A program made the position numbers and the translations under genes. This document shows, one piece after another, positions 17,917 through 52,167 of a DNA stretch of 64,000 nucleotides. Source of the stretch: a virus; UHGV virus genome UHGV-1351772, one strand, 5' to 3'. The notes beneath the pieces are model-generated. The model ran no database searches, had not been told where the DNA came from, and worked only from the letters and a program-made list of their open reading frames with translations. Numbering within the stretch: the stretch's first letter is position 1; the number at the start of each line of letters is the position of its first letter.

Positions 17917-17927
17917 TAACCGGCCTC

Positions 17928-19202: not shown

Positions 19203-20010
19203 TCTGGTCTCCAATTTGGTATTCGTCAAGGTTTACCGTGACCTGAACTTCGTAGATTTTATTGTCTTTCTGACGCCTTAAGGTCAGAAGGATTTCGAAA
19301 CTACGAACATCAATTGCCTTGAGTACCCTCATAAACCATTTCCAGGAAAACTTCTTTTTTAACCTTAGATTGTGCTGCATGTTGTGCCGCAAATCATTTC
19401 GTTTCGACGGTGTCTGCTCACAGTTAGCAGGATCGTTAACGAAGTTTGTGGAAAGACGGTACCACCAATCCGCATTCATTTTCATGTTTGCGAAGATAGT
19501 CCAAGTTAGCCGAGATAACGGATGCACCATCATCTTTGCGGTCTCACCACAGTTCTGGAAATAACGGTTCAATTGCGCAGTTGCAGACTCTTTAGGTCGT
19601 TCGTCGTTATCTTCGAACAAATCCCGAGCGAGATCTTCACGCACGCGTGTGGTAATTTCAGATACGGTTTTTGTTTTGAAGTGTCCTCGGTAAGTGGTTA
19701 CACAAATCCGCAGTGTCTCCACTCCGGTAATCACCAACCCTTCTGTAAAACCTCGCCAGGTAAGATCGACAGGTAGTGCAGGAATGTTACCTGAACTCAG
19801 CTTCGTGGAGATACGTTGTATTCGATCGTCCATCGTTGCTTTTGAACGTGTTTTAAATTCCGGAGACAGAATATGTTTGGCGACGGCGAGTTTATAATCC
19901 GAAGGCTTCCATCCGATCAATTCTTTATAATTCCAATATAGTGTTTGAAGTGGTCCGCCTGCACGTTCGTCTTCAGCGTCCACGACCACACTTACTTTTT
20001 TGCTATCCAT
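19168..20010 (-). CDS. Hypothetical protein, ~280 aa
   Basis: ATG 20010 with AAGGTGA SD; 3' end overlaps next gene start by ~35 nt. Confidence 0.55.
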   Translation of the reverse strand: MDSKKVSVVVDAEDERAGGPLQTLYWNYKELIGWKPSDYKLAVAKHILSPEFKTRSKATMDDRIQRISTKLSSGNIPALPVDLTWRGFTEGLVITGVETLRICVTTYRGHFKTKTVSEITTRVREDLARDLFEDNDERPKESATAQLNRYFQNCGETAKMMVHPLSRLTWTIFANMKMNADWWYRLSTNFVNDPANCEQTPSKRNDLRHNMQHNLRLKKKFSWKWFMRVLKAIDVRSFEILLTLRRQKDNKIYEVQVTVNLDEYQIGDQNENRPNNQSDK

Positions 20011-22787: not shown

Positions 22788-24284
22788 TTATTTCTTTTTC
22801 GTCAGGAACTTCGGTTCTAGTCCATCGACAGCCATACCCAGAATGGTACGTGCAGTCAGTGTACGTTTACCACCTTTGGTTTCCTGGTCTTTAAACATCC
22901 AGTATTCTACCGTGTTGTCCAGAATTTCATTCCAGTCCCACTTCTCGTCAATCATTTTGTAAATCTCACCCATGCTGAGATGATACTTCATTTCAAGACG
23001 ATGGTAGTTGTTTTGCATATAAGCAATTGCCGCCGTGATCTCTAAAGCGCGACGTAAGCGTGCGTTATCAGAAATCATATCACGGATTGTCGTGCGTTGG
23101 AATTTCACACCAGGTAGAATGTCCAGTTCTTTGATGGAGCCGCCACTACCGCTTGACGTAAAACCAAAGTCTGACTTCTTCAGCGTGTCACTTAAATAGT
23201 GCCACAGGCTCAGGTGATATAACAGACCCATTTCCTGAGAGAAGATCATCTGGAATTTCACACCAGTGTGACCACCCTTCGCACGATACTGAGTAAAGGT
23301 GATAATCTTCAAGTCGTTTACCGAAGCATTCATCGCTTTAGAACGTGACGTCGGATAAAGTTCTTCGTTAACACCGGTCTGCGCGTTATAGCTCTGGTCT
23401 TTTTTCAGCTCCCCTGATTTCGTCGCGACGATAAAAGAGTTTGTTAAAAAGCTAAGCTGACGGCGAGGAATACCTGCGAATTTTAAATCGTCGTTGGCAT
23501 CGTCAAGAATTTTCGCATTTGCTTTTTGTGCCTGACGGCCACCTGCCATCGCTTTCCCAGAGTCATCGGCCATCTGTGCCACGAAGCCCATGTAAAAACC
23601 ACCACGTGCAAACGCAGACGGCCAGCGGCTCATCATATTCGATTTTTGCAGCGCATCGTGGGCGTTCAGGATGTTCTGATCAGAATCCCCAATATCCGTT
23701 TTTGCGTGCTTGTCTTCCAGCGAACTGGAATGCCACTCTGACAGGGAGTCGATAGAATAAAGCCAGGGGTCCAGGATTTCTTTTAACTTACGACGAACCG
23801 GATCGGGGAACGGTGTTACGCGGGTTTTACCAGACATATACTGTTTGAAGCGTTTTTCAACTTCATCACGAATATAATCACTGTAATACTGTTCCCCAGG
23901 CATTACGTCAGAACCGACCAGGTTATAACGACCTTCGTGGATAAGTTCCAGTACGGATGTTCCGTCGTCGATACCGTTGGCGTTCATGGCAGAGATGTAC
24001 CCAGTTTCTAAACGATCGAGGGCAGCTGACACTTCTGTATCGTACTTAGAACCCCACTCTGCTTTATAACGTTGCAGGATTTGGAAAATACAGAAATCTA
24101 ACAAGGTGGATTTAAAAGTGTTACCGCGCCCTGCGAAACCCATGATGTGGGCAAAACCACCGTTAAGGTAGTACAAACCATCTTCACCTTTTTCGTAGTT
24201 ACCTAAGGCATGATCCATGATGGTGTAAACGTTAAAACGTGGACGAATTACTTCACCGATAACTTGCTTAGTTGGGCCTGCCAT
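22788..24284 (-). CDS. Hypothetical protein, 498 aa
   Basis: ATG 24284 with GGAG SD; GRGNTFKST is not a canonical Walker A; no confident assignment. Confidence 0.65.
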   Translation of the reverse strand: MAGPTKQVIGEVIRPRFNVYTIMDHALGNYEKGEDGLYYLNGGFAHIMGFAGRGNTFKSTLLDFCIFQILQRYKAEWGSKYDTEVSAALDRLETGYISAMNANGIDDGTSVLELIHEGRYNLVGSDVMPGEQYYSDYIRDEVEKRFKQYMSGKTRVTPFPDPVRRKLKEILDPWLYSIDSLSEWHSSSLEDKHAKTDIGDSDQNILNAHDALQKSNMMSRWPSAFARGGFYMGFVAQMADDSGKAMAGGRQAQKANAKILDDANDDLKFAGIPRRQLSFLTNSFIVATKSGELKKDQSYNAQTGVNEELYPTSRSKAMNASVNDLKIITFTQYRAKGGHTGVKFQMIFSQEMGLLYHLSLWHYLSDTLKKSDFGFTSSGSGGSIKELDILPGVKFQRTTIRDMISDNARLRRALEITAAIAYMQNNYHRLEMKYHLSMGEIYKMIDEKWDWNEILDNTVEYWMFKDQETKGGKRTLTARTILGMAVDGLEPKFLTKKK

Positions 24285-29746: not shown

Positions 29747-30413
29747 ATCTAAGAATATTTTTAGCGAAAAAAGGATCGACTGTAAACTCCCTCACCTGTG
29801 AGTCATAACCCGAATGTATCTGATCGCTACTGAGCAAATACCCGTCTAAATCGTGTGGAAGAATCCAAGAATCGCCTTGTTTAAAAATACCATAATCTGT
29901 TGTTCCAGAGGAAAAAACGATTTCCTCTGGAGACGAATAGATGTGGCGTAAGGCAAGATCTGACGGCTTTAACACGATTAATCGAACGGGATGTTGACTG
30001 ACTGCCTCTTTAATAAACTGTTCACGATTAAACCAAATTATTTTTTCGGGGTAAGTTTCGAATTCAGCCCATGTCCGCGTGATAACTAATTTGGAAATCT
30101 TTCTCAATTCTTCAGAATGCTCTGCGTAGCCGATACACTCCTTGCGCACTTCATGATTTTCTACCGATGCTGTGAATTTTTGGAATAGGTGTTGTTGGAA
30201 AAAGCCGTTCTCCGGGATATCACAACCCGCGTTGTATAGTGCAATGATCTCCCACAACAACGAAAGAGAAAACACAAATGCTAACTTTTCCACAACTTCC
30301 CAATCTTCGGAGTAAGGGGCTTTAAAGCCCCAATACTGCCGTGCGTTATACATAAAGTGAGTTTGTAAAAACCGAGGGGCTTTTGACAAGACCTCACTAT
30401 AAACGATCAGCAT
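29745..30413 (-). CDS. Hypothetical protein, 222 aa
   Basis: ORF in array; 7-nt overlap with upstream gene. Confidence 0.55.
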   Translation of the reverse strand: MLIVYSEVLSKAPRFLQTHFMYNARQYWGFKAPYSEDWEVVEKLAFVFSLSLLWEIIALYNAGCDIPENGFFQQHLFQKFTASVENHEVRKECIGYAEHSEELRKISKLVITRTWAEFETYPEKIIWFNREQFIKEAVSQHPVRLIVLKPSDLALRHIYSSPEEIVFSSGTTDYGIFKQGDSWILPHDLDGYLLSSDQIHSGYDSQVREFTVDPFFAKNILR

Positions 30414-31927
30414 TCAAGCTCCTTATCCGTCAATATTCGTTTGTTTGAATAATAGCCGCACCACAACCCATGATATTTTTCCCCAATATAAACCAACGCG
30501 TACTCGATATACTGCCGTTCTGGACGCCGTACCGCCACGTAGAATCGTCCTTCTGGTTCTTTCATACGGTTGATTTCCGTACGCGTCGGTATGTCGATAC
30601 CACGAGTAAGGATAGTTTTAACCTTGTTTTTACTACCAGGGATATGGATGGTTACGTCAAAACCTTTATCTACGTTACGATAAAAATCTTTCTTCGGCTT
30701 ACCTTTCTCATCGTAAAGCAGGTCAGTAATGTCGTTCATCACGACTGAGTTTTTCCCTTCCATGGCATCGCGTAACCAACCTGCAAGCTCATCACGAATC
30801 GTAATGCAGCGATAAGACAATAACGCGGGACGAAGAATTCGTGTAATCGAAAGATCTTCAAACATCCATAGGTTTTTGTCTTCGCTAAAATGCATCCGAT
30901 CGACAGGAATACCGTTACCTGCGGCTTCTGCGAACTTCTTACGTTTTACGAATAAGTTAAAAACAACGGCGATGGGATCAAACTGACGTAAACGGGGCAC
31001 CCCTTCCCACGCTTTCGCAGAGTGGGTATTTACCAACTCGTATACGTTGTTCCATGGTTCTTTGGTAAACATTACGCAGAATTGCGCGTCTGGAATGTAC
31101 TTACCAACGAAGACGATATCGTCCTTCTGTTTTGCATGGTTCCCACCGAACATGTAATAAAGTTTATTACCGTTAACTGTAACAGTGGGATGCGGTTCGT
31201 TCACCATCGGGTAACAGAACTTCGTAACACAGATATCGGGAAAAGCAGACAAATTGACGCCTTCACCAACAACTTCTGGTTGCTGATCTTCCTCAGGCAT
31301 CTCGTCTTTTGACCAATACGGTGTATAGTCTAGCCCATCGCCTCGTGCCGAGATACTTGAACCCTTCCGTGCTAACTCGTCGGCACGCTCGTTTCCATAA
31401 CGTCCTGAATGCCCTTTAATTTTAAGGACACGAACACCTTTCCCTTCTTTCTTTAACCGCTGTTTAACCTCCCACATCCGTTGGATTAATTCCAAGTTCG
31501 CAATGGGCGTACCGTCTGCGCGACGCCAACCGCGTGCAGCCCAACCATCAATCCAATCGTTATACGTGTTGACAACGTAAGATGCGTCGATATAGATAAC
31601 ATAGTTTTTAGCAACGAAAGGTGCATGTTCGAAAACGGTCAGGAAAGCCACGAGTTCTGCAACGTCGGAGTGTGACATTTTTGGTACAGGCACAACACCG
31701 TCAATAAACTCCACAGCTTCTGGTAAAGATGGAAGTTTTTCATCCTTGTTTATCTGGCGGTATCCTGACGTCGTAATCCCCTCGGGAATAGAGGGATGGC
31801 GGTAAACCCGACCATCCTCAATCGTTTCACGATTAAATAAGTATCCATGAATCCCCGCTCCTGTACCGAGCGGGGAGGTCAAATGGCTACCATCCGTGTA
31901 AATTACTGCAACATCAACGTTCTTCAT
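30407..31927 (-). CDS. RNase HI domain fused to a ~310-aa C-terminal domain of unknown function
   Basis: 506 aa; N-terminal VAVIYTDGSHL..GTGAGIHGY, SDVAELVAF, IDASYVVNTYNDWIDGWAARGWRRADGTPIANLELIQR, KGHSGRYGNERADELARKG match the RNase HI DEDD plus His catalytic set and surrounding motifs. Confidence 0.85.
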   Translation of the reverse strand: MKNVDVAVIYTDGSHLTSPLGTGAGIHGYLFNRETIEDGRVYRHPSIPEGITTSGYRQINKDEKLPSLPEAVEFIDGVVPVPKMSHSDVAELVAFLTVFEHAPFVAKNYVIYIDASYVVNTYNDWIDGWAARGWRRADGTPIANLELIQRMWEVKQRLKKEGKGVRVLKIKGHSGRYGNERADELARKGSSISARGDGLDYTPYWSKDEMPEEDQQPEVVGEGVNLSAFPDICVTKFCYPMVNEPHPTVTVNGNKLYYMFGGNHAKQKDDIVFVGKYIPDAQFCVMFTKEPWNNVYELVNTHSAKAWEGVPRLRQFDPIAVVFNLFVKRKKFAEAAGNGIPVDRMHFSEDKNLWMFEDLSITRILRPALLSYRCITIRDELAGWLRDAMEGKNSVVMNDITDLLYDEKGKPKKDFYRNVDKGFDVTIHIPGSKNKVKTILTRGIDIPTRTEINRMKEPEGRFYVAVRRPERQYIEYALVYIGEKYHGLWCGYYSNKRILTDKELEC

Positions 31928-37382: not shown

Positions 37383-37862
37383 TTAAAATAATGGCAAGTT
37401 ACGCCATTGTCCTACCGAGTAAAAAGCTTTTGGATGTTTACGGATATACGCTTTCGCTTCTTCTGGCAACCAACGGTCACCTACCAGTTTTTGTTGTGCA
37501 ACAATTACTGCCATCAACAAATAAGGGTTTTTCGCACCGGGAAACTTTGCATTGGTTTCTAGCGCAATATCCAACATTGACGACCAGCCCAGTAATTTAT
37601 GCTGCGCCGGTAAACGTTCTTCAATATACATCAGCCAGTTCATGATTTGTTTAGGTTTATACGGACAGGTATAATTCGCCCAACACACCATGACGAACTT
37701 AATAGCCTTCGCAATCACCCATACAGGGACAGTCACGAAAAGGCAGAAAATAGCCAACTGCGATGCGGGCGCTTCGACAAAAGTAATCGCCACAAGGACC
37801 ATAAACAATTCAAGTACCACAAACCAAAAACGCGTTGGATAACGCCAAATGAACTTTATCAT
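37383..37862 (-). CDS. Integral membrane protein, 159 aa
   Basis: Multiple hydrophobic helices (FWFVVLELFMVLVAITFV, LAIFCLFVTVPVWVIAKAIKFVMVCWA); AGGAG SD. Confidence 0.6.
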   Translation of the reverse strand: MIKFIWRYPTRFWFVVLELFMVLVAITFVEAPASQLAIFCLFVTVPVWVIAKAIKFVMVCWANYTCPYKPKQIMNWLMYIEERLPAQHKLLGWSSMLDIALETNAKFPGAKNPYLLMAVIVAQQKLVGDRWLPEEAKAYIRKHPKAFYSVGQWRNLPLF

Positions 37863-37895
37863 AACTCTGCTCCTTTAGGGAATGAAAATAAAAGT

Positions 37896-37930
37896 ACCCC
37901 TTACTCCACAAAGGGTAAGGGGTAGGGATT
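37896..37930 (-). terminator. Rho-independent terminator (minus strand)
   Basis: CCCTTAC-loop-GTAAGGG hairpin, U-run on minus strand. Confidence 0.55.
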
Positions 37931-38438
37931 AGAAGAACGGCTGATTTGGAATGACAGCGTACTCTAAAATGAACATGTGTTCTGGGGCGTCTTCTTTACG
38001 CCAGACCTTGTGTGTCGACACAAGTTTTTCCAGAATCGTTAGAAAACTACGCTGGCAGTATGTGTTTTCACCAAGCAGTAGATTTTGAAGTTCTACAGTA
38101 GCGTCCATATACGCCTGTTTAAAGACTAAATTACGGTTATACTGCCCGGTAAAATTCCAAAGCAAGACTTTCCCTTCTTCGGTTTCTTTTACCGTTGGTC
38201 GTAAACCACAAATCCACAGTAAGGCAAGGTTGACGTTCCAGTCAAACTCTAAACCTTCTTCTTCGTCATCACCGAATGCTGTGGGTAAAGCATCGTAAAA
38301 TTCGTGTTTCTCTGCGAATTCTTCATCCGACTTAATCTCGTCTTCGATACTGCTTCGGACGATACTGTAAACGTCTTTCGCGGTCAATTGTGCGGCTTTT
38401 GTAATGCCTTTATACCAATCGGTTACTACGATGCTCAA
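37929..38438 (-). CDS. Hypothetical acidic protein, 169 aa (TTG start)
   Basis: TTG 38438 with GAGGAG SD; TTGA overlap with upstream stop; no ATG until aa ~122. Confidence 0.5.
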   Translation of the reverse strand: MSIVVTDWYKGITKAAQLTAKDVYSIVRSSIEDEIKSDEEFAEKHEFYDALPTAFGDDEEEGLEFDWNVNLALLWICGLRPTVKETEEGKVLLWNFTGQYNRNLVFKQAYMDATVELQNLLLGENTYCQRSFLTILEKLVSTHKVWRKEDAPEHMFILEYAVIPNQPFF

Positions 38439-39133
38439 AGGGTAACTCCTCTATTGATTGGAAAACTCGTGTTTATCGTATCCCAAATTCTACTAACTTC
38501 CGCCAGTTGAATCTGACGTGGTGTTTTCTTCGCAAACGCAAGCTGACGTGGGGCCGAGCCCACAACAACAGGCACATCGATTTTCGCGCTATAGAACGCG
38601 GCGTCTTTCATAAAGCCTGCCATTTCTCGTTGTGCTGCTCGAGATTTGCTTTTGATTCGCGTGTGAGCGCCACTTTCACCCCAGTGGTAAGCTAACGCAA
38701 TTTCAGCCATGGTGGGCTTGCGTTTGAGTCGTTTGGTTAACCCCTTCTCAAGATGTTTAACATACGCGGCAGCCAGCAAAACAGCATTACGCGGATTATA
38801 TAAATCGGCGTTCTGACTAAGACCTAATTCTTTTCCATAAAGCCTTAGCAGATTACGCTTGGTACTTGGAAGCATCTGTACCAGGCTGTGTGCTCGTGAG
38901 CTTTTGTTGTAAGCCTTGGGATCAAAACGTGATTCGCGATAAATCAGCGTAATCATCAGCTTAGGATCAACGCCTTGCTTTCGTGAGATTTCCACAATTA
39001 ACGGGCTGACTTTTTCGAACCGATGTTGGATTTGTGCAAACTCACGCTGATGCTTAGAATGTGGCGTTGACGTTGACGCCTGTGCGTTAAACGCGAAAAG
39101 TGTTACCAGTAAAAGAAAGAAGATACGAAACAT
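38435..39133 (-). CDS. Secreted lytic transglycosylase (signal peptide plus SLT domain)
   Basis: Start moved to ATG 39133 (GGAG SD): MFRIFFLLLVTLFAFNAQA signal peptide; ESRFDPKAYNKSSRAHSLVQMLPST ... YNPRNAVLLAAAYVKHL. Confidence 0.6.
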   Translation of the reverse strand: MFRIFFLLLVTLFAFNAQASTSTPHSKHQREFAQIQHRFEKVSPLIVEISRKQGVDPKLMITLIYRESRFDPKAYNKSSRAHSLVQMLPSTKRNLLRLYGKELGLSQNADLYNPRNAVLLAAAYVKHLEKGLTKRLKRKPTMAEIALAYHWGESGAHTRIKSKSRAAQREMAGFMKDAAFYSAKIDVPVVVGSAPRQLAFAKKTPRQIQLAEVSRIWDTINTSFPINRGVTL

Positions 39134-39225
39134 TTTGTTTCTCCAGTTGGATTTATACATTTCCGTATTCCGTAAGACGAAATGACGGCGCGGACAGCTA
39201 ATACTCCTTTGTTGTGTGCCCTAAT

Positions 39226-39235
39226 GATAATATCT
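39226..39235. promoter_or_regulatory. GATAATATCT element
   Basis: Third exact copy of the 10-mer, upstream of the secreted lytic transglycosylase gene. Confidence 0.3.
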
Positions 39236-39731
39236 ATTTAAAAGAGTTTGGAATTAATGACTCTGCTTCTTGATACAACTTATCAGGTAAGTATAACGTG
39301 TAGCGTTGCCTCCTCGGTTCAAGTTTTTTGTAAAGCCACAAAAAGATTTCTTGTCTTTCCCAGGAATCTAACCACCCGTTTGCCATTCCAAGTGGAGGGA
39401 TAGCAACGCTGGTATCCAGATCCTCAGCACAATCCGCCAGTGCGGTAATGCCCGCAGTAACATAAGAAACCTGGGACTTTAAGCGCCAATGGGTTTTCGT
39501 GGGGAGCAAGATACACTTTTCGTCAGAGTAAACGTAAACGTTTCCAATCTTAATTTCGTTTTCACGACACCGCTTACGATAATTCTGGTAAAGGTTGGGG
39601 TAGCGTTCACGACACGCGAGTGCAATGCCGCGACCCATCGCTCCTACGCAGTTAATGGTAACGACTTTATAGTCTTCGGGCGCATTAAAAAGATCGTTAT
39701 CAATTTCAGATTCTTTACGTACCGTTAACAT
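39234..39731 (-). CDS. Macro domain protein, TARG1/OARD1-like
   Basis: Start moved to ATG 39731 (MLTVRKE...). NDLF...VVTINCVGAMGRGIALACRERYP and VAIPPLGMANGWLDSWERQEIF resemble by eye TARG1 GDLF..[25 protein letters not shown] and LSMPRIGCGLDRLQWENV. Confidence 0.55.
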   Translation of the reverse strand: MLTVRKESEIDNDLFNAPEDYKVVTINCVGAMGRGIALACRERYPNLYQNYRKRCRENEIKIGNVYVYSDEKCILLPTKTHWRLKSQVSYVTAGITALADCAEDLDTSVAIPPLGMANGWLDSWERQEIFLWLYKKLEPRRQRYTLYLPDKLYQEAESLIPNSFK

Positions 39732-39818
39732 AACGAAACGCCCGGAGTTGATGTGTAGTATTAAAACGTGTACCGCCGATTGATAGCTCGACAAGTATAG
39801 CGATATATGTTTTACCCA

Positions 39819-40187
39819 TTATCGATTTTTCGTAATCCATTGCTTGACCGCCGCTTCTAAACCCTCGTGTTGTAAGCCCAGGCGTTGCATAGTCAGTGCC
39901 AAGTTAAGCGTGTGTACGACCTGCTCACGGAACCGATGATCGTTCATACGGTCCCAGACCTTCTCTACTGAAATATTGTGTTTCCAGAGCAAATAAGCTT
40001 CACGACACGATGCACGACGAACTAAGCTAGGTTTAACAAAAGGCAACTCGATTTCAGGCAAGTAACCTAAAAGCTTAACTAACGGCGTTACTTGTGTCTT
40101 ACCGAAGTCGCCACACTGATAACAAATTTGTAGAATATCAATTTCATTCAACGGTATACCGTAAATTGATGGGTTCTCTGTGAACAT
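39819..40187 (-). CDS. Hypothetical protein, 122 aa
   Basis: ATG 40187 with GAGGAG SD. Confidence 0.55.
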   Translation of the reverse strand: MFTENPSIYGIPLNEIDILQICYQCGDFGKTQVTPLVKLLGYLPEIELPFVKPSLVRRASCREAYLLWKHNISVEKVWDRMNDHRFREQVVHTLNLALTMQRLGLQHEGLEAAVKQWITKNR

Positions 40188-40389
40188 TCATATTCTCCTC
40201 AGGCTCGAAATGTGTTTCGGGTGGCAACGTCCCTAAAGCCCCTTGGATACAAGCCGTCAGTGAAGGTTTGCCGAAACAGACCTTACCTATTGTCCCCACA
40301 TTGGGATGCTGTAAGAACGCTTTCGCACGTTCGTATTCCTTCCAACAAATACTCGTATCCAAACCACCCACTCCGTACGATTTTAACAT
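40144..40389 (-). CDS. Hypothetical protein, 81 aa (3' end overlaps next gene by 44 nt)
   Basis: ATG 40389 with AGGAGAG SD. Confidence 0.5.
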   Translation of the reverse strand: MLKSYGVGGLDTSICWKEYERAKAFLQHPNVGTIGKVCFGKPSLTACIQGALGTLPPETHFEPEENMNVHREPINLRYTVE

Positions 40390-40455
40390 AATTAGCTCTC
40401 CTGACGTAAATTTCTCACACTCATAGTGAGGTACGCCAAGAGAGCTTTATTGTTT

Positions 40456-40899
40456 TTAGAATGTTTTGCTAAAATCGACCCACTCACGATCGCGTGAGTA
40501 AACCGCCTGATAGCCGCGTCGGATGAAATACTCTTTTGCTTCTTTACATTTCGCATACATGCCAGTAACAATCTCGCCGAAAACTTCATCAGCTGCAATT
40601 GCTTTGAAAATCTCTTTCATTACACCCCGTTGACGATAGTCTGGGAGCACGTATACCGAACGTATCTTAAGTGAACCGTTACGATTCCGATAACTACAGT
40701 ATCCTACCGCGACATCATCCTGATACACCAGAACTATGCAGTTACCTTCGATCAGCTGTCGCGCATTTAACTTCGGCACCGACGTTTTGATTTTCAGTAA
40801 CGTGGCCTGGTGGTCTAAGTAACGGTAGTGTAGTTTGAGTAAATCGGCAGCTTGTCGCTCACCGACTTTAGAAGATGCGTTCAACAAATAAATTTCCAT
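40456..40899 (-). CDS. Putative GNAT-family N-acetyltransferase
   Basis: Start at ATG 40899; VGYCSYRNRNGSLKIRSVYVLPDYRQRGVMKEIF resembles GNAT motif A. Confidence 0.5.
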   Translation of the reverse strand: MEIYLLNASSKVGERQAADLLKLHYRYLDHQATLLKIKTSVPKLNARQLIEGNCIVLVYQDDVAVGYCSYRNRNGSLKIRSVYVLPDYRQRGVMKEIFKAIAADEVFGEIVTGMYAKCKEAKEYFIRRGYQAVYSRDREWVDFSKTF

Positions 40900-40930
40900 T
40901 TGCAAACCTTAGAGACGCAAAAAAAGTAAA

Positions 40931-41059
40931 ATTAAAACCAACGCGCGATGACGAAAGCCGCAGCGGCTAATATGGCTGTGGTGATTATTAATCCACCCCA
41001 TGAAAGTTCCGCGTCGTATAGTGCGGATATCGCTACATTCGTAGCGTTTATCGTGGTCA
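40931..41059 (-). CDS. Small membrane peptide, 42 aa (not in ORF track)
   Basis: ATG 41059 with AGGAG SD; MTTINATNVAISALYDAELSWGGLIITTAILAAAAFVIARWF. Confidence 0.45.
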
Positions 41060-41117
41060 TTTTCTGCTCCTGTCAATACCCTCACACCGGAGGGTATCTT
41101 CTGGATTATCTGGGTGG

Positions 41118-41216
41118 TTAATCTTCGAATGCCCAACGGTGACGTTTAATCAGCCAGTTTAAACCTTTACCAATTAACCACAACGAGCCAAGTGTTAACA
41201 GAACCCCTACAACCAT
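41118..41216 (-). CDS. Small membrane peptide, 32 aa (not in ORF track)
   Basis: ATG 41216 with AGGAGAG SD; MVVGVLLTLGSLWLIGKGLNWLIKRHRWAFED. Confidence 0.45.
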   Translation of the reverse strand: MVVGVLLTLGSLWLIGKGLNWLIKRHRWAFED

Positions 41217-41226
41217 ATTCCCTCTC

Positions 41227-41406
41227 CTAATTCCGCCATTCGCATTCGCGTTGACGCCAAATTGAACCCCACGATAGTTTAATCAGATAAGATGAAACTA
41301 CCCATAAAATCATCACCACACAAAACATGACATAAAGAACCGCTAGAATGGACATGAAGCCAAACCCTGCCGCATCCACAATATGACGGAACCAATCAGT
41401 TTGCAT
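41227..41406 (-). CDS. Small membrane peptide, 59 aa
   Basis: ATG 41406 (AAGGAG upstream); MQTDWFRHIVDAAGFGFMSILAVLYVMFCVVMILWVVSSYLIK...; overlaps stop of ATPase gene. Confidence 0.5.
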   Translation of the reverse strand: MQTDWFRHIVDAAGFGFMSILAVLYVMFCVVMILWVVSSYLIKLSWGSIWRQRECEWRN

Positions 41407-43900
41407 AAACAATTTTTACTCCTTCGTTATACACCGCAGGCAATGTCACCCCTTCCGGTTCGATGACACAGTACGATGCTTCATTAAGTTTAGAATGAAC
41501 CTCGGCTTCGTGGGAGACTACCAACAGTTGAGAAAATTCTCCCGAGTTTGCTAACGTTTTAATAAAGCCGACCAGGTTGTTACGGTGCTCCTCATCCATG
41601 CCTTCCGAAGGCTCATCCAAAAGCAATGGAAACTGATGCAACTTCAGCGCTTTGTACGCAGTCAGCCTGAACATCAGATTAAATATCGCACGCTGCGCCT
41701 TAGACCCTTTACGCACGTCAGGAACAGGCTCAGGATGCGTTTTTAGCTGGACAGGAAAAGTATAATCCAAATCGCCGTCAGTGAGGTCACAAGGCATAAC
41801 GCGCATGGGGTACGTCCAGACCTGTTCGATATAACGCGTCATTAACTCTGTGATTCTAACGATAGCGTTGTAAAAATACTTTCTAAGTACACCCTTTTCT
41901 GGAGAGAAGGCTTGAATCATCAGTTTGTTATTGAACTGCTGGGCTTGTAAGTCAGCAAGTTCGCGTTCCAAACTGTTGAGCTGATTCAATTCATTTTCCA
42001 TCTGACGATAACGTTCGCGTGCGGTTGTAAAAGCATCCAGCTTCCCTTCTCGTGCACGTAAGAGTTCCTCGACGACCGTATTTGTCAACGTAACCTTAAC
42101 ATCACTCTCTAACCGTTCGAATAACGCACTGAAATCATCTACAGCACGTTTAACATTCACCAGATAGGTAAGTGTCGTGTTAGCCAGTTCGTGCTCTCTA
42201 CGACGCATTGAGAGCATTTCTGTGGCTTTACCTAATCGTGACTGTTGGAAAGCGATTTTCTGTTGTAAAGCACCATCGACGTTACCAACGGCCGCCACGG
42301 CATCCTGCCATTCTTTTTCCGCCTTCACTAACCGTTGTCGGGTTTCATGGTACTCAATAGCAGAGTACAACTCGCTGTCAAACGCTGCGCATAGACTCCC
42401 GAACTGTTCACGTGATTCTGTGAAAACGTTACGTTCTTGCAAACGCTTAAAGAACATGCTCAATACCGGGTCCTTTGAATACGTCAGTACAATCTCACGA
42501 ACCTGCCGCATATAAGTTACATCAGATTCTAATTCAACACGATCGCGTAATAAGGTCTCTAACTGCGTTTGCAGTTCCGTGCGCTGCTGTTGTTGTCCGC
42601 GAATCGAAGACTCAAGTTCAGGTAAAGAACGCGTAACACCAGGCCGAAACTTAAACCGACACTGCGGGCAATCCACTTCCGCTGTTTCTAAGTAGTGATT
42701 ACGTTCGTGATTTAAATTCTGTAAAACGTTCTCCACTCGCTGGAGTCTATCCCGCAACCCTGCGGTTTTTTGATCCATCACCAGAAGCCGTTCTTCCAAA
42801 ACATTGAGTTTTTCAGTTGAATGAATTGCGTCCAGTGTTGTTCCTAACCGTTGCCCCCAGACACGCGCATCGGTAGCCGCACGAAGTTGGTCTAAATTGA
42901 CGTTGTCGTTAAATAGACCCGGAAAGAGATGCTCGGTGTCCCATTTGGTAAGTAACTCACGTAAACGCGCCAATGTATTCTTGAGACCTTCGTGATTCCG
43001 CATCAGGTAGTCTTGTCGTGTCGATTCATCCATCAATAACGACAAGTCTTTATTCAACATCGATACCTCTGTTTCAGTAGACACGACAGCTTCGCGGGCC
43101 GTCGCTTCGTTTTGTCGCGCGGCCAGTATCTGTTCATCAGTAGGCAGTCCACCACGATGTTGTAATATTGCGTCGATGGTTGGGCCCAAGCTGTTTAATA
43201 ACGCTTGGATTGTTTCGATGGTGACGGCACGATTTAATCCTGGCAACTGTTCGATTTCTCGGTTCAGTTCACGTAAATCCGATTCCAAACCTTTTAATCT
43301 CGTCGCCAACTGCTGCCGTTCTTCCTCGTTCTCAATAACACGCGTCCGCAATTCGGCGATTTTACGGCTGGTGATTTCAATACCCCCATTTAAGGCAGTA
43401 AGGTTTTTACGTAAACGTTGATAAAACCCTAACGCGTAGGTGAGGTCAGAGGTACTTAAACGGTAAAACCACTTACGACGCAGTTCCGTTCCTGCATCCG
43501 TTAAAAGCACTTCTCCGTTCAGTAGTTCTTTAATCTCTTTTGTAATGCCTGTGATTTCTTCAACACGGGAGTTGTAGACTTTCGCATTACCTTGCTCGAC
43601 GATCTTTGCCCCCGTGGTCAAGTTCTCAATATCACAAACCAGTGAGTTCCCTTTACGGGCAACTTTGAATCGATAGCGTTGATCACCAACTAAACAGTAG
43701 TTCGTGTAAGAACCGCCGTCCCTGAATTCGGTTTTGGCCGGTGCTAAGGGTAAGAATACAGACAGTAGACTGGTTTTCCCGCAACCGTTTCCACCCAGGA
43801 TAATTGTTGTTGGGGACTGGATAGTGAAATCGAATGTTTCAATTTCATGTAACCCCATCCCCGTAAAACCTTTGAGTATAATGCGTTCAACTTTTAGCAT
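41396..43900 (-). CDS. SbcC/Rad50-like SMC-family ATPase with coiled coil and CxxC zinc hook
   Basis: Start moved to ATG 43900 (GGAGGTG SD). Walker A GGNGCGKTSLL, long coiled coil, hook EVDCPQCRF, signature-like SKAQR, Walker B LLLDEP, H-loop VVSHEAE. Confidence 0.75.
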   Translation of the reverse strand: MLKVERIILKGFTGMGLHEIETFDFTIQSPTTIILGGNGCGKTSLLSVFLPLAPAKTEFRDGGSYTNYCLVGDQRYRFKVARKGNSLVCDIENLTTGAKIVEQGNAKVYNSRVEEITGITKEIKELLNGEVLLTDAGTELRRKWFYRLSTSDLTYALGFYQRLRKNLTALNGGIEITSRKIAELRTRVIENEEERQQLATRLKGLESDLRELNREIEQLPGLNRAVTIETIQALLNSLGPTIDAILQHRGGLPTDEQILAARQNEATAREAVVSTETEVSMLNKDLSLLMDESTRQDYLMRNHEGLKNTLARLRELLTKWDTEHLFPGLFNDNVNLDQLRAATDARVWGQRLGTTLDAIHSTEKLNVLEERLLVMDQKTAGLRDRLQRVENVLQNLNHERNHYLETAEVDCPQCRFKFRPGVTRSLPELESSIRGQQQQRTELQTQLETLLRDRVELESDVTYMRQVREIVLTYSKDPVLSMFFKRLQERNVFTESREQFGSLCAAFDSELYSAIEYHETRQRLVKAEKEWQDAVAAVGNVDGALQQKIAFQQSRLGKATEMLSMRRREHELANTTLTYLVNVKRAVDDFSALFERLESDVKVTLTNTVVEELLRAREGKLDAFTTARERYRQMENELNQLNSLERELADLQAQQFNNKLMIQAFSPEKGVLRKYFYNAIVRITELMTRYIEQVWTYPMRVMPCDLTDGDLDYTFPVQLKTHPEPVPDVRKGSKAQRAIFNLMFRLTAYKALKLHQFPLLLDEPSEGMDEEHRNNLVGFIKTLANSGEFSQLLVVSHEAEVHSKLNEASYCVIEPEGVTLPAVYNEGVKIVYAN

Positions 43901-43927
43901 ACCCACCTCCATAAAGACGGAGTGTGG

Positions 43928-43973
43928 TGTAAAAAGAAAAAAATAAAGAAAGGGAGAACCCGAAGGTTCTCCC
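43928..43973 (-). terminator. Strong rho-independent terminator (minus strand) upstream of ATPase gene
   Basis: GGGAGAACC-CGAA-GGTTCTCCC hairpin followed on minus strand by UUUCUUUAUUUUUUUCUUUUU. Confidence 0.75.
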
Positions 43974-47807: not shown

Positions 47808-47860
47808 CTTTAGTTCTCCTAAAATGGTTTTCGTTAAGTGAGAGCTTTTGTACTCTCACC

Positions 47861-47881
47861 TAAGTAATATATATCTGAAAT
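47861..47881. promoter_or_regulatory. Conserved 21-mer TAAGTAATATATATCTGAAAT preceded by hairpin (47838-47859)
   Basis: 20 of 21 nt identical to 52147-52167; contains GTAATATATA; lies 54 nt upstream of minus gene start 47807. Confidence 0.45.
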
Positions 47882-52113: not shown

Positions 52114-52167
52114 AGGGACTGAACTGGTACTTCAGTCCCTATTCACTTAAGTAAAATATATCTGAAA
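52114..52167 (+). promoter_or_regulatory. Hairpin (AGGGACTGAA...TTCAGTCCCT) followed by conserved 21-mer TAAGTAAAATATATCTGAAAT, upstream of plus-strand tail module
   Basis: 21-mer ends 27 nt before ATG 52194; near-identical copy at 47861. Confidence 0.5.

What the first reader, a model, noticed from the sequence alone, without database searches (positions are those of the whole stretch)
39234..43900. Candidate transcription unit: SbcC/Rad50-like ATPase, three unannotated micro-membrane ORFs, GNAT acetyltransferase, two small ORFs and a macro domain
A strong terminator at 43928-43973 precedes a Rad50/SbcC-like ATPase (Walker A, coiled coil with CPQC zinc hook, Walker B, H-loop). No Mre11/SbcD-type phosphoesterase gene is adjacent, whereas the partner nuclease is normally encoded next door. 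Instead the ATPase is followed by three tiny hydrophobic ORFs of 59, 32 and 42 aa, each with its own AGGAG-type SD; two of them are absent from the ORF track. A GNAT acetyltransferase, two overlapping small ORFs and a TARG1-like macro domain follow. Co-transcription is inferred only from the lack of intervening U-tract terminators. An orphan Rad50-like ATPase with membrane micro-proteins and ADP-ribose/acetyl-handling enzymes is not a combination I can assign to a known pathway.
Basis: partly seen in the sequence, partly recalled or inferred. Interest (0 to 1): 0.6.

Follow-up and report, generated by a model that had tools for sequence, protein, structure and literature searches.

The report
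Conserved jumbo-phage SbcC-to-AdfM gene row
This is an ordinary, inherited gene row of an SPN3US/Asesino-like nucleus-forming jumbo phage: its SbcC repair ATPase has its nuclease partner encoded far away in relatives, and its macro-domain gene matches a published anti-DarT factor, so it is not a new pathway.

Summary
The interpretation as an unassignable [quoted passage not shown] unit does not hold.

- **Origin.** The window comes from a phiKZ-related jumbo phage. The closest named relatives are Erwinia phage Asesino and Salmonella phage SPN3US.
- **SbcC.** The ATPase is the family-wide SbcC (SPN3US gp186, genetically essential; phiKZ gp165). Its SbcD partner is always encoded elsewhere. SbcC and SbcD homologues each occur in 290 phage records with near-identical taxon counts. 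They lie about 87 kb apart in the closest complete relative. This split was published in 2016.
- **Macro protein.** It is 62% identical to Asesino gp217 (AdfM), a published nucleus-localised anti-DarT2 enzyme. Both catalytic residues are kept.
- **Micro-ORFs.** All three are real. They are conserved single-pass membrane proteins with in-frame dN/dS of 0.17-0.34, and most homologues are already annotated in relatives. Their function is unknown.
- **Gene order.** It is shared by five related genera but dissolves in phiKZ, Goslar and RAY, so it reflects descent rather than a pathway.
- **Co-transcription.** It is plausible: a conserved promoter-like motif sits upstream, and the next U-tract terminator is at 37.9 kb.
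- **Possibly new.** The GNAT is invariably paired with an EF-Tu N-terminal fragment gene that sits behind a covarying Shine-Dalgarno (SD)-sequestering hairpin.

The parts
43929..43973 (-). Intrinsic terminator of the upstream 202-aa gene: a 9-bp GC-rich stem with a UUCG loop, then a T tract.
   Evidence: dG -17.4 kcal/mol, z -5.4. The same hairpin, with covarying stem sequences and a CTTCGG loop, sits upstream of SbcC in 7 relatives.
43910..43934 (-). Promoter-like motif TTTTAC-N15-TATG. The TTAC element lies about -22 to -19 from the G of TATG.
   Evidence: Found at the same place in the seven GenBank relatives and in the E. ludwigii record; two of them (Phobos, pEa_SNUABM_38) have TATA instead of TATG. 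The window holds 3 copies against 0.85 expected. The layout matches phiKZ middle promoters, which have a TTAC element near -24, some also with TATG at +1 (PMC4666361). Function is inferred, not shown.
41396..43900 (-). SbcC/Rad50-like ABC ATPase, 834 aa. It is the orthologue of SPN3US gp186, Asesino gp207 and phiKZ gp165.
   Evidence: It is 71% identical to Asesino gp207. All 53 SNPs against the SRR9844200 contig are synonymous.
41227..41412 (-). Micro-ORF 1: 61 aa from TTG 41412 or 59 aa from ATG 41406. It has one transmembrane (TM) segment, a C-terminal RECEWR motif, and overlaps the SbcC stop codon by 17 or 11 nt.
   Evidence: (dN/dS 0.34), and 90 (PHROG 16515, E 1e-4, full length). It is the homologue of SPN3US gp187 (PMC5105663).
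41118..41216 (-). Micro-ORF 2: 32 aa with an N-terminal hydrophobic segment. Family motif GSLWLIGK..W.I.K.KGWAF.
   Evidence: 6 genomes, 28-56% identity; 68% identity to the closest relative, dN/dS 0.32; PHROG 13448, E 6.6e-14.
41075..41098 (-). Stable hairpin without a U tract, between micro-ORFs 2 and 3.
   Evidence: dG -16.7 kcal/mol, z -2.9. By eye, a different possible hairpin sequence, there followed by TTTTAC, sits at the same place in the E. ludwigii relative (not folded). Role unknown.
40932..41060 (-). Micro-ORF 3: 42 aa with a C-terminal TM segment ending RWF.
   Evidence: 44-47% identity to the SPN3US (locus tag ACQ60_gp077) and pEa_SNUABM_29 homologues; 64% identity, dN/dS 0.17. 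Its homologue is annotated in NZ_CP134650.1 as WP_305771813.1.
40456..40899 (-). GNAT N-acetyltransferase, 147 aa. Substrate unknown.
   Evidence: Acetyltransf_1, _7 and _10 above cut-off; PHROG 3810; 49 phage records, all SPN3US-like. The RimI model gives only 17.6 bits against a cut-off of 86.4.
40394..40446 (-). Conserved RNA stem-loop whose 3' arm contains the AGGAG Shine-Dalgarno sequence of the next gene.
   Evidence: In 7 genomes, 89% of cells are paired, against 38-54% when the partner columns are slid. Seven pairs have compensatory changes against 2.3 in shuffles (0 of 500 shuffles reach the observed value). No Rfam family matches.
40144..40389 (-). 81-aa protein homologous to the N-terminus of EF-Tu (tail, beta-1 strand, P-loop, helix 1). 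The P-loop is degenerate in this phage (GKVCFGKPS).
   Evidence: EF-Tu models, E 3e-4; HxNVGxIG invariant, plus two invariant Cys. Its family profile hits genuine EF-Tu N-termini at E about 1e-5 in 5.8 billion sequences. It is always adjacent to the GNAT.
39819..40187 (-). 122-aa protein of unknown function. It overlaps the previous ORF by 44 nt.
   Evidence: PHROG 11720, E 8e-31. Conserved in SPN3US, Asesino, pEa_SNUABM_29 and Kwan.
39715..39819 (-). 34-aa ORF with a TAATG overlap with the previous gene. It looks like a truncated member of the family of the 82-aa SPN3US protein ACQ60_gp071.
39234..39731 (-). AdfM-type DarG2-like macrodomain protein, 165 aa. It is predicted to remove DarT2-made ADP-ribose from thymidines in DNA.
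   Evidence: 62% identity to Asesino gp217; DarG macrodomain structures 5m3i and 5m31, E 2e-25 and 1.6e-20; PADLOC DarG, E 5e-37; NCBIfam DarG, E 6e-36, macro part only. Catalytic N27 and K79 align with N22 and K80 of T. aquaticus DarG2.
38435..39160 (-). SLT-type lytic transglycosylase with an N-terminal signal-like segment. It lies downstream of the reported interval but within the same terminator-free stretch.
37929..38438 (-). 169-aa conserved protein whose start overlaps the SLT gene by 4 nt. It is the last gene before the next U-tract terminator.
   Evidence: PHROG 8114.
37891..37924 (-). Next terminator-like hairpin with a U tract on the minus strand.
   Evidence: dG -19.3 kcal/mol, z -3.9.

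Best explanation
The interval is a stretch of conserved gene order from an SPN3US/Asesino-like jumbo phage related to phiKZ. It is not one functional system.

1. **SbcC.** The ATPase is the phage's SbcC/Rad50 subunit. It works with an SbcD/Mre11 nuclease encoded tens of kilobases away to process DNA ends for recombination-dependent replication and repair. This role is inferred from homology and from the amber-mutant lethality of SPN3US gp186.
2. **Macro protein.** It is the orthologue of AdfM. AdfM is imported into the phage nucleus and strips ADP-ribose that host DarT2 places on thymidines of phage DNA.
3. **Small membrane proteins.** Between these two genes lies a fast-evolving stretch of accessory genes. 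It includes three real single-pass membrane mini-proteins. The first is translationally coupled to SbcC.
4. **GNAT pair.** The stretch also holds a GNAT that is invariably paired with an EF-Tu N-terminal fragment gene, plus small conserved proteins of unknown function.
5. **Transcription.** The row is probably read as one middle-class transcript by the phage's own RNA polymerase. It would start at a promoter-like motif just after the upstream terminator, run through the SLT lysin gene, and end at the terminator near 37.9 kb.
For: **Identity of the phage.** SbcC protein hits fall in 290 phiKZ-related jumbo-phage records. The best is Asesino at 71%. The same gene order is found in Asesino, SPN3US, pEa_SNUABM_29, pEa_SNUABM_8, Kwan, Phobos and pEa_SNUABM_38.

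**SbcC family features.** All catalytic motifs and the CxxC hook are conserved.

**Partner encoded elsewhere.**
- SPN3US gp27 (SbcD) is at 21 kb and SbcC at 169 kb.
- 290 records carry SbcD, with near-identical taxon counts to the SbcC set.
- In NZ_CP134650.1 (75% nucleotide identity over 91% of the query; SbcC protein 87% identical) SbcC is at 16.9-19.5 kb and SbcD at 106.2-107.4 kb.
- That SbcD matches PHROG 100, SbcD-like, at E 8e-63.

**Published background.**
- gp186 is essential, SbcC and SbcD are 'drastically separated', and a 63-aa TM ORF lies downstream (PMC5105663).
- phiKZ gp165 is listed as a core gene with a knock-down phenotype (PMC12571901).

**AdfM.** The macro protein is 62% identical to Asesino gp217, which that paper shows in the phage nucleus. 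DarG models give E about 1e-36, and the catalytic N and K are kept.

**Not a conserved functional set.**
- Downstream neighbours of SbcC differ in the phiKZ-like phage SL2, Goslar, RAY and Aphrodite1.
- The GNAT and the EF-Tu-like gene are absent from Phobos and pEa_SNUABM_38 while SbcC, macro and SLT stay.
- The number and kind of small ORFs vary between genera.

**Micro-ORFs are real.**

**Transcription.**
Against: - The window's own SbcD was not seen. It is absent from these 64 kb, and I could not link it to the same contig. Its presence rests on relatives.
- No transcript, protein or activity data exist for this phage or, as far as I found, for its closest relatives. Promoter and operon statements are pattern-based.
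- If TATG marks the start site here, the SbcC leader would be only about 10 nt.
- Order conserved across five genera could also reflect selection for co-expression.
- Seven of the ten ORFs in the reported interval have no known function.
- Two stable hairpins without U tracts (41098-41075 and 40446-40394) could divide the unit.
Confidence: 0.8

Rival explanations
1. The stretch between SbcC and the lysin gene is an accessory or anti-defence hotspot. Besides AdfM, the GNAT plus EF-Tu-fragment pair and the membrane mini-proteins would also be host-takeover or counter-defence factors. Each acts on its own and is gained and lost between genera.
For: - AdfM is a proven counter-defence gene.
- Gene content between the conserved anchors varies strongly. 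Three small-protein families present in SPN3US and Asesino are missing here. Kwan has two GNATs and many more small ORFs. Phobos has other genes entirely.
- The mini-proteins evolve faster than their neighbours: 60-68% identity against 85-87%, and dN/dS 0.17-0.34 against about 0.05 for the GNAT.
- The GNAT and EF-Tu-fragment genes are restricted to this clade and co-occur (49 and 48 records).
Against: - No PADLOC, Pfam or PHROG function exists for any of these genes except AdfM and the generic GNAT fold.
- Variability alone does not show an anti-defence role.
- This view overlaps with, rather than contradicts, the best explanation.
Confidence: 0.3
2. The first mini-protein, and perhaps the others, is a membrane partner of SbcCD that anchors or regulates the nuclease. 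This was proposed for T4 gp47.1 and raised for SPN3US gp187.
For: - Its start overlaps or abuts the SbcC stop codon in the window and in the 8 clade relatives examined (from -17 to +10 nt). It always encodes one TM segment.
- The suggestion is already in PMC5105663.
Against: - The positional homologues are not all homologous in sequence: Phobos, Kwan and pEa_SNUABM_8 differ.
- No such ORF follows SbcC in the phiKZ-like phage SL2, Goslar, RAY or Aphrodite1.
- In these phages replicating DNA sits inside a protein-walled nucleus, so an inner-membrane anchor makes little sense.
- Overlapping start and stop codons are common in this densely packed genome.
Confidence: 0.12
3. The whole row (SbcC, membrane peptides, GNAT, small ORFs, macro) is one new DNA-repair or DNA-modification pathway. 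This is what the first reader suspected.
For: - The genes share one strand, have short gaps, and have no U-tract terminator between them.
- The order is kept in five genera.
- SbcC and AdfM both act on phage DNA.
Against: - The set falls apart outside the SPN3US-like clade.
- GNAT and the EF-Tu-like gene are lost together without loss of the others.
- AdfM works alone against DarT2 in vitro and in E. coli.
- SbcC has a canonical partner elsewhere.
Confidence: 0.05
4. The membrane mini-proteins belong to the lysis or superinfection-exclusion machinery, together with the nearby signal-bearing SLT lysin and the two-TM 159-aa protein.
For: - The secreted-type SLT lysin lies 1.8 kb downstream in the same terminator-free stretch, and a 2-TM protein follows it.
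- Small TM proteins are typical of holins, antiholins and exclusion proteins (general knowledge).
Against: - Seven other genes separate them from the lysin.
- They show no similarity to any annotated holin or spanin PHROG.
- One TM segment in 32-61 aa is not diagnostic of these roles.
Confidence: 0.12

Closest known systems
SPN3US gp186 (SbcC) with gp27 (SbcD), and phiKZ gp165
   Same: Orthologous ATPase: 58% identity to SPN3US and 71% to Asesino gp207. It has the same length, the same motifs and the same CxxC hook. It has the same downstream TM mini-ORF. In relatives the SbcD gene is separated from it in the same way.
   Different: This is a different, previously unnamed lineage with no megablast hit among GenBank phages. 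It has a shorter set of small ORFs after SbcC: three of the six small-ORF families seen in relatives.
T4 gp46/gp47 and E. coli SbcCD (Mre11-Rad50 class)
   Same: ABC ATPase head split by a long coiled coil with a zinc hook. It partners a phosphoesterase nuclease. It is essential for phage DNA replication and recombination in T4 and SPN3US.
   Different: - The two subunit genes are adjacent in T4 and E. coli but dispersed here.
- The signature motif is degenerate (GSKAQ).
- The spacer between the ATPase halves is about 300 residues longer than in T4.
- Sequence similarity to solved Rad50 structures is marginal (E 1e-3 to 1e-5).
AdfM (phiKZ gp104, Asesino gp217) and the DarG2 macrodomain
   Same: It is 62% identical to Asesino gp217. 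It has a DarG-type macrodomain with the catalytic Asn and Lys, and like AdfM it lacks the DarT-binding domain of DarG.
   Different: Activity and nuclear import were not tested for this protein. In phiKZ and Goslar the gene is not near SbcC.
T4 gp47.1 and SPN3US gp187 (small TM proteins next to the Rad50-like gene)
   Same: A mini-protein of about 60 aa with one TM segment, placed directly after the ATPase gene.
   Different: No function is shown for any of them. Here two further unrelated TM mini-proteins follow.
RimI and EF-Tu N-terminal acetylation in E. coli
   Same: A GNAT sits next to a protein that copies the N-terminus of EF-Tu, which is the substrate region of RimI (PMC9079301). Relatives' annotations call the pair 'ribosomal-protein-alanine acetyltransferase' and 'elongation factor Tu'.
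   Different: - The GNAT does not reach the RimI model cut-off (17.6 against 86.4 bits).
- The small protein is only a fragment of about 40 EF-Tu-like residues with a degenerate P-loop.
- No biochemical link is shown.

Membership tests
SbcC/Rad50 (SMC-like ABC ATPase of the Mre11-Rad50 class) | N-terminal Walker A and C-terminal Walker B/D-loop and H-loop in one polypeptide | tested here: met
   GGNGCGKTS at aa 36-44, LLLDEPSEGMD at aa 759-769, VVSHEAE at aa 794-800. All are conserved in 12 phage sequences. PHROG 77 matches at E 5e-91; Pfam SMC_N matches at E 2e-8 but below its gathering cut-off (34.3 vs 40 bits).
SbcC/Rad50 (SMC-like ABC ATPase of the Mre11-Rad50 class) | Long helical insert with a central CxxC zinc hook | tested here: met
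   CPQC lies at aa 411-414 of 834, and the CxxC is invariant in all 12 sequences. The coiled-coil character of the roughly 600-residue insert was not computed. It is inferred from family membership and PMC5105663.
SbcC/Rad50 (SMC-like ABC ATPase of the Mre11-Rad50 class) | ABC signature motif (S-G-G-Q/E type) | tested here: inconclusive
   The aligned position reads GSKAQR here, and GSxxQ or SxGE in relatives. It is degenerate but alignable.
SbcC/Rad50 (SMC-like ABC ATPase of the Mre11-Rad50 class) | An Mre11/SbcD phosphoesterase partner encoded in the same genome | tested here: inconclusive
   - Not present in the 64-kb window.
- Present in all relatives: 290 records, SPN3US gp27, and NZ_CP134650.1 at 106 kb.
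- The lineage's SbcD cluster has 248 members; most of the 15 listed sit on contigs of 100-228 kb.
- SPN3US gp27 shows the phosphoesterase motifs by eye: DIH, GDLFD, SHD, MHG, GHDH.
- The window's own genome beyond these 64 kb was not available.
AdfM / DarG2-type macrodomain (DNA ADP-ribosyl glycohydrolase) | Macro fold of the DarG/TARG1 branch | tested here: met
   Pfam Macro gives 27.6 bits against a cut-off of 22. PADLOC DarG matches at E 5e-37. NCBIfam DarG matches at E 6e-36 over profile positions 7-155. PDB entries 5m3i and 5m31 match at E 2e-25 and 1.6e-20.
AdfM / DarG2-type macrodomain (DNA ADP-ribosyl glycohydrolase) | Catalytic Asn and Lys (N22 and K80 of T. aquaticus DarG2) | tested here: met
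   N27 (TINCVG) and K79 (PTKTHW) align with the corresponding residues of 5m31. The residue roles come from PMC13309987.
AdfM / DarG2-type macrodomain (DNA ADP-ribosyl glycohydrolase) | Stand-alone macrodomain without the DarT-binding domain of DarG; orthology to a studied AdfM | tested here: met
   The protein is 165 aa, and the NCBIfam score of 124 bits is far below the full-length DarG cut-off of 250. It is 62% identical to, and syntenic with, Asesino gp217.
AdfM / DarG2-type macrodomain (DNA ADP-ribosyl glycohydrolase) | Removes DarT2-made ADP-ribose from DNA and localises to the phage nucleus | not testable with these tools
   Activity is shown for phiKZ gp104, and nuclear localisation for phiKZ, PhiPA3 and Asesino AdfM. 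Neither is shown for this protein.
GNAT acetyltransferase | GNAT fold with an acetyl-CoA-binding core | tested here: met
   Acetyltransf_1 (32.9 bits against 20.7), Acetyltransf_7 (32.9 against 27) and Acetyltransf_10 (27.4 against 23.6) all pass. The R/Q-x-x-G-x-G/A-type motif (QRGVMK) is visible by eye in the sequence.
RimI (S18 / EF-Tu N-terminal acetyltransferase) | Score above the equivalog cut-off of TIGR01575 | tested here: not met
   17.6 bits against a cut-off of 86.4. 'RimI-like' is only an annotation carried in relatives.
EF-Tu (translational GTPase) | Complete GTP-binding domain with an intact G1 P-loop, plus domains II and III | tested here: not met
   Only EF-Tu residues about 4-38 are matched. 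The protein is 81 aa. The P-loop reads GKVCFGKPS here, although it is GHVDHG(R/K)(S/T) in several relatives. It is homologous to a fragment of EF-Tu and is not an EF-Tu.
Rho-independent terminator | GC-rich hairpin directly followed by a U tract | tested here: met
   The sites at 43973-43929 and 37924-37880 meet this. The internal hairpins at 41098-41075 and 40446-40394 lack a U tract.
phiKZ-type middle/late promoter (phage non-virion RNA polymerase) | TATG with its G at +1; middle class adds a TTAC-containing element centred near -24 | tested here: inconclusive
   The pattern is present at 43934-43910 and at the same place in the seven GenBank relatives and the E. ludwigii record (TATA for TATG in Phobos and pEa_SNUABM_38). 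The definition comes from PMC4666361. TATG alone is known to be insufficient, and no start-site data exist.
Chimalliviridae (nucleus-forming jumbo phages) | Encodes chimallin (ChmA) and the core gene set | not tested
   Membership is inferred. The closest named relative, Asesino, is a published nucleus-forming phage. SbcC homologues are confined to phiKZ-related phages. ChmA itself was not searched for in the window.

The most novel reading that the evidence does not exclude
Two pieces of the row may be undescribed functional modules.

(a) The GNAT and the EF-Tu N-terminal fragment protein may form a two-gene unit. They are always adjacent. They occur in 49 and 48 phage records with near-identical taxon counts, and both are missing from the two Derbicusvirus genomes examined. 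They are separated by a covarying RNA stem-loop that hides the fragment's ribosome-binding site. The unit could act on host EF-Tu or on an EF-Tu-directed host defence. For example, the fragment could be a decoy or specificity subunit, and the GNAT could acetylate the EF-Tu N-terminus or the fragment itself.

(b) The SbcC-coupled single-pass membrane protein may tether or regulate the phage SbcCD complex.
Probability: 0.2. Interest if true: 0.55.

Novelty: new member of a known kind. Interest (0 to 1): 0.25.

Why it matters
The apparently orphan Rad50-like ATPase is explained by the scattered gene layout typical of phiKZ-related jumbo phages. That layout was published for SPN3US in 2016. The macro-domain gene is a characterised counter-defence factor published in 2026. 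The finding therefore does not open a new pathway.

Its residual value has three parts:
- It documents a previously unnamed ~222-kb jumbo-phage lineage that appears as a circular 'plasmid' or a large contig in Enterobacteriaceae assemblies.
- It shows that very small membrane ORFs missed by gene callers are under purifying selection.
- It points to an unstudied GNAT plus EF-Tu-fragment pair with a structured, covarying leader. This pair could be tested directly in Asesino or SPN3US, which already have genetic tools.

Tried and rejected
- **DNA searches for the source.** Megablast of the region against GenBank phages gave no hit. An exact 42-mer search in IMG/VR contigs also gave no hit.
- **Host-type promoters.** The sigma-70 scan was uninformative: 11 sites against 16.8 expected. 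These phages use their own polymerases.
- **CTTTTTAC as a motif.** It looked like a recurring motif after terminators, but 7 copies against 4.8 expected is not enriched, so I dropped it.
- **Second TTTAC-N-TATG match.** The match upstream of the EF-Tu-like gene (40410-40387) would start transcription inside the start codon. I therefore read it as part of the conserved leader structure rather than a promoter. This remains ambiguous.
- **Structure of the EF-Tu-like protein.** AlphaFold2 with 26 homologues gave mean pLDDT 52.7, too poor for a fold search, so none was run.
- **SbcD of this lineage.** Pfam Metallophos matched only weakly (E 0.043). No solved structure matched by sequence. The assignment rests on PHROG 100 and on motifs read by eye.
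- **Linking SbcD to the same contig as this SbcC.** Cluster members could not be looked up. The cluster representative came from another sample.
- **Rfam.** Only sub-threshold matches to the terminator hairpin were found.
- **'One operon, one pathway'.** I considered and rejected this reading on comparative grounds.

Full report
**What is in the sequence**

All genes of the finding lie on the minus strand. In order they are:

| Feature | Coordinates | Notes |
|---|---|---|
| Terminator | 43973-43929 | Hairpin 43973-43952, dG -17.4 kcal/mol, z -5.4, then a T tract |
| SbcC ATPase | 43900..41396 | 834 aa |
| Micro-ORF 1 | 41412/41406..41227 | 61 or 59 aa |
| Micro-ORF 2 | 41216..41118 | 32 aa |
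| Micro-ORF 3 | 41060..40932 | 42 aa |
| GNAT | 40899..40456 | 147 aa |
| ORF | 40389..40144 | 81 aa |
| ORF | 40187..39819 | 122 aa, overlaps the previous ORF |
| ORF | 39819..39715 | 34 aa |
| Macro protein | 39731..39234 | 165 aa |

- **SbcC.** The ATPase matches PHROG 77 (SbcC-like) at E 5e-91; Pfam SMC_N matches at E 2e-8, below its gathering cut-off.
  - It carries Walker A at aa 36-44, a CPQC hook at aa 411-414, Walker B/D-loop at aa 759-769 and an H-loop at aa 794-800.
  - All of these are conserved in 11 other phiKZ-related phages.
- **Micro-ORFs.** Each has an AGGAG-type Shine-Dalgarno (SD) sequence and a hydrophobic segment.

The start-codon corrections are in the observation check.

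**Where the window comes from**

- The SbcC protein finds 290 phage records. All named ones are phiKZ-related jumbo phages.
  - The best hits are Erwinia phages Asesino, Stratton and phiEaH2 at about 71% identity.
  - Salmonella phage SPN3US is at 58%.
- There is no nucleotide-level match among GenBank phages.
- The exact SbcC protein occurs on Logan assemblies of three sequencing runs. One of these contigs is identical to the window over the 7.4 kb compared.
- The closest complete sequences are two ~222-kb circular replicons deposited as plasmids: Enterobacter ludwigii NZ_CP134650.1 and E. coli NZ_CP173450.1.
- The rest of the window fits this assignment. It holds:
  - a 2358-aa tail protein with a lysin domain;
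  - large virion proteins;
  - a baseplate gene;
  - an RNase H-like gene;
  - a UvsX-like recombinase.

**The 'orphan' ATPase**

- No SbcD/Mre11 homologue lies in the 64 kb.
- In SPN3US the SbcD gene (gp27) is at 21 kb and SbcC at 169 kb.
- A tblastn with gp27 finds 290 phage records with near-identical taxon counts to the SbcC search.
- In NZ_CP134650.1, SbcC lies at 16,946-19,450 and SbcD at 106,244-107,389.
  - That SbcD belongs to a 248-member cluster.
  - Most listed cluster members lie on contigs of 100-228 kb from Salmonella, E. coli and Shigella assemblies.
  - It matches PHROG 100, SbcD-like, at E 8e-63.
- Thomas et al. 2016 (PMC5105663) had already reported that:
  - gp186 is an essential SbcC subunit;
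  - SbcC and SbcD are 'drastically separated' in SPN3US, phiKZ and related phages;
  - the gene after SbcC encodes a 63-aa transmembrane (TM) protein, which they compared with T4 gp47.1.
- phiKZ gp165 is listed as a core 'SbcC-like nuclease' with a knock-down phenotype (PMC12571901).
- I could not show the SbcD gene on the very contig of this window. That one step rests on relatives.

**The macro domain**

- Its best solved relatives are the DarG macrodomains 5m3i and 5m31 (E 2e-25 and 1.6e-20).
- PADLOC and NCBIfam DarG models match at E about 1e-36, over the macro part only.
- It is 62% identical to Asesino gp217 and sits at the same position in the gene row.
- Morgan et al. 2026 (PMC13309987) named this family AdfM. 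They showed that:
  - phiKZ gp104 removes DarT2-made ADP-ribose from DNA and protects the phage;
  - Asesino gp217 is imported into the phage nucleus.
- The catalytic residues N22 and K80 of T. aquaticus DarG2 correspond to N27 and K79 here.
The function is already known.

**The micro-ORFs**

- Homologues exist in relatives, and most are already annotated there, for example:
  - the 63-aa SPN3US TM protein that Thomas et al. call gp187;
  - the SPN3US micro-ORF 3 homologue (locus tag ACQ60_gp077);
  - WP_305771813.1 in NZ_CP134650.1.
- Alignments show three distinct families of single-pass membrane proteins. Two of them are existing PHROGs of unknown function.
- Against the E. ludwigii relative, the ORFs keep their lengths.
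  - They are 60%, 68% and 64% identical.
  - In-frame dN/dS is 0.34, 0.32 and 0.17, against 0.6-3.5 in the other frames.
- They evolve faster than their neighbours, which are 85-87% identical.
- Three further small-protein families seen in SPN3US and Asesino are absent here.
- In the window and the eight clade relatives examined, a one-TM ORF starts within -17 to +10 nt of the SbcC stop.
  - These ORFs are not all homologous to each other.
  - Nothing similar follows SbcC in the phiKZ-like phage SL2, Goslar, RAY or Aphrodite1.

**Is it one system?**

- The order SbcC, small ORFs, (GNAT, EF-Tu-like ORF), small ORFs, macro, SLT lysin is shared by five genera: Erskinevirus, Seoulvirus, Machinavirus, Wellingtonvirus and Derbicusvirus.
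- Derbicusvirus lacks the GNAT and its partner but keeps the rest.
- Outside the clade:
  - SbcC sits next to a divergent baseplate gene, with unrelated genes downstream;
  - AdfM is elsewhere (phiKZ gp104 versus gp165; Goslar gp83 versus gp12).
- This pattern indicates gene order inherited by descent, with a variable accessory stretch, rather than a pathway.

**Transcription**

- On the minus strand, the three genes upstream of SbcC each end with a U-tract terminator (45176, 44636, 43973). The next one is at 37924-37891.
- Directly after the 43973 terminator lies TTTTAC-N15-TATG (43934-43910).
- The same arrangement precedes SbcC in the seven GenBank relatives and the E. ludwigii record. It consists of:
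  - a hairpin with a covarying stem and a UUCG loop;
  - a T tract and TTTTTAC;
  - 15-16 nt and then TATG, or TATA in Derbicusvirus.
- The window holds three such motifs against 0.85 expected.
- In phiKZ, middle promoters have a TTAC-containing element near -24, and late promoters (and some middle ones) have TATG with its G at +1 (PMC4666361).
- SbcC therefore probably has its own middle-type promoter, and the unit probably extends beyond the reported interval through the SLT and 169-aa genes.
- All of this is pattern-based. Two stable hairpins without U tracts lie inside the unit.

**What may be new**

- The 81-aa ORF is homologous to the N-terminus of EF-Tu.
  - NCBIfam EF-Tu models match at E 3e-4 over EF-Tu residues 4-38.
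  - The stretch HxNVGxIG is invariant in 26 family members, together with two Cys residues that EF-Tu lacks.
  - The family profile retrieves genuine EF-Tu N-termini at E about 1e-5 from 5.8 billion sequences.
  - Some relatives are already auto-annotated 'putative elongation factor Tu'.
- The GNAT occurs in 49 phage records and the EF-Tu-like ORF in 48. Both sets have near-identical taxon counts, and the two genes are adjacent in every record where both positions are listed.
- Between them lies a stem-loop (40446-40394) whose 3' arm is the AGGAG of the EF-Tu-like ORF.
  - Across 7 genomes, 89% of cells pair, against 38-54% when the partner columns are slid.
  - Seven pairs show compensatory changes against 2.3 in shuffles (0 of 500 shuffles reach the observed value).
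  - No Rfam family matches.
- RimI acetylates the EF-Tu N-terminus in E. coli (PMC9079301). However, this GNAT does not reach the RimI model cut-off.
- The structure prediction of the fragment was poor.
- The link between the GNAT and the fragment is therefore a hypothesis only.

**Verdict**

The main components are already explained in the literature. The lineage itself is new, so I rate this 'new member of a known kind' and low in interest. The one lead worth testing is the GNAT plus EF-Tu-fragment pair with its structured leader.

Noticed in passing
window 52167..52143 and 47880..47856 (minus strand): A 25-nt motif, TTTCAGATATATWTTACTTARGTGA, occurs exactly twice against 0 expected by chance. 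Each copy lies upstream of a row of small genes and is followed by a hairpin. It contains TATATTAC, which I recall as the core of phiKZ early (virion RNA polymerase) promoters. That recollection was not checked. No copy lies in 36-44 kb.
   Followed up: partly
window 40899..40144 (GNAT plus 81-aa ORF): The GNAT is always followed by a mini-protein homologous to the EF-Tu N-terminus. The pair is restricted to SPN3US-like phages (49 and 48 records), and both genes are missing from Derbicusvirus.
   Followed up: yes
window 40446..40394 (minus strand): A conserved RNA stem-loop with compensatory changes in 7 genomes. It sequesters the Shine-Dalgarno sequence of the EF-Tu-like ORF. No Rfam family matches.
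   Followed up: yes
window 39160..37383 (minus strand): This is a possible lysis cassette directly after the macro gene. It holds an SLT transglycosylase with a signal-like N-terminus (MFRIFFLLLVTLFAFNAQAS), an overlapping 169-aa acidic protein, and a 159-aa protein with N-terminal hydrophobic segments (two by eye).
   Followed up: no
L021 (NZ_CP134650.1), NZ_CP173450.1, and the protein cluster of P0006: This phage lineage is deposited as ~222-kb circular 'plasmids' in Enterobacter ludwigii and E. coli. Its SbcD occurs in 248 cluster members, most of those listed on contigs of 100-228 kb from Salmonella, E. coli and Shigella isolate assemblies. This suggests a carrier-state or pseudolysogenic jumbo phage that is common in isolates.
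   Followed up: partly
window 43835..41531 versus L004 and L005: All 53 SNPs in SbcC between the window and two other assemblies are synonymous. They are clumped, with 15 between 43525 and 43472, which hints at a recombination mosaic. The 600 nt covering the micro-ORFs carry only 3 SNPs.
   Followed up: partly
window 41412..40906 versus L001, L002, L007-L009: The stretch after SbcC varies in content. Relatives carry up to three further small-protein families that this window lacks:
- a 2-TM protein of about 70 aa
- a roughly 35-aa protein ending ALTQGWF
- a basic protein with EDWRGNQKRHERMWR
   Followed up: partly
window 39819..39715 (minus strand): A 34-aa ORF joined to the previous gene by a TAATG overlap. 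Its first 20 residues are conserved in the E. ludwigii relative. It looks like a truncated copy of the family of the 82-aa SPN3US protein ACQ60_gp071.
   Followed up: partly
window 22788..24284 and 30407..31927 (minus strand): A UvsX-like recombinase (PHROG 97) and an RNase H-like ribonuclease lie 17 kb and 10 kb from SbcC. Recombination and replication genes are scattered among structural genes, as is typical of this phage group.
   Followed up: no
window 41098..41075 (minus strand): A stable hairpin (dG -16.7 kcal/mol) without a U tract lies between micro-ORFs 2 and 3. The E. ludwigii relative seems, by eye, to have a different hairpin sequence at the same place, followed by TTTTAC (not folded).
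   Followed up: partly
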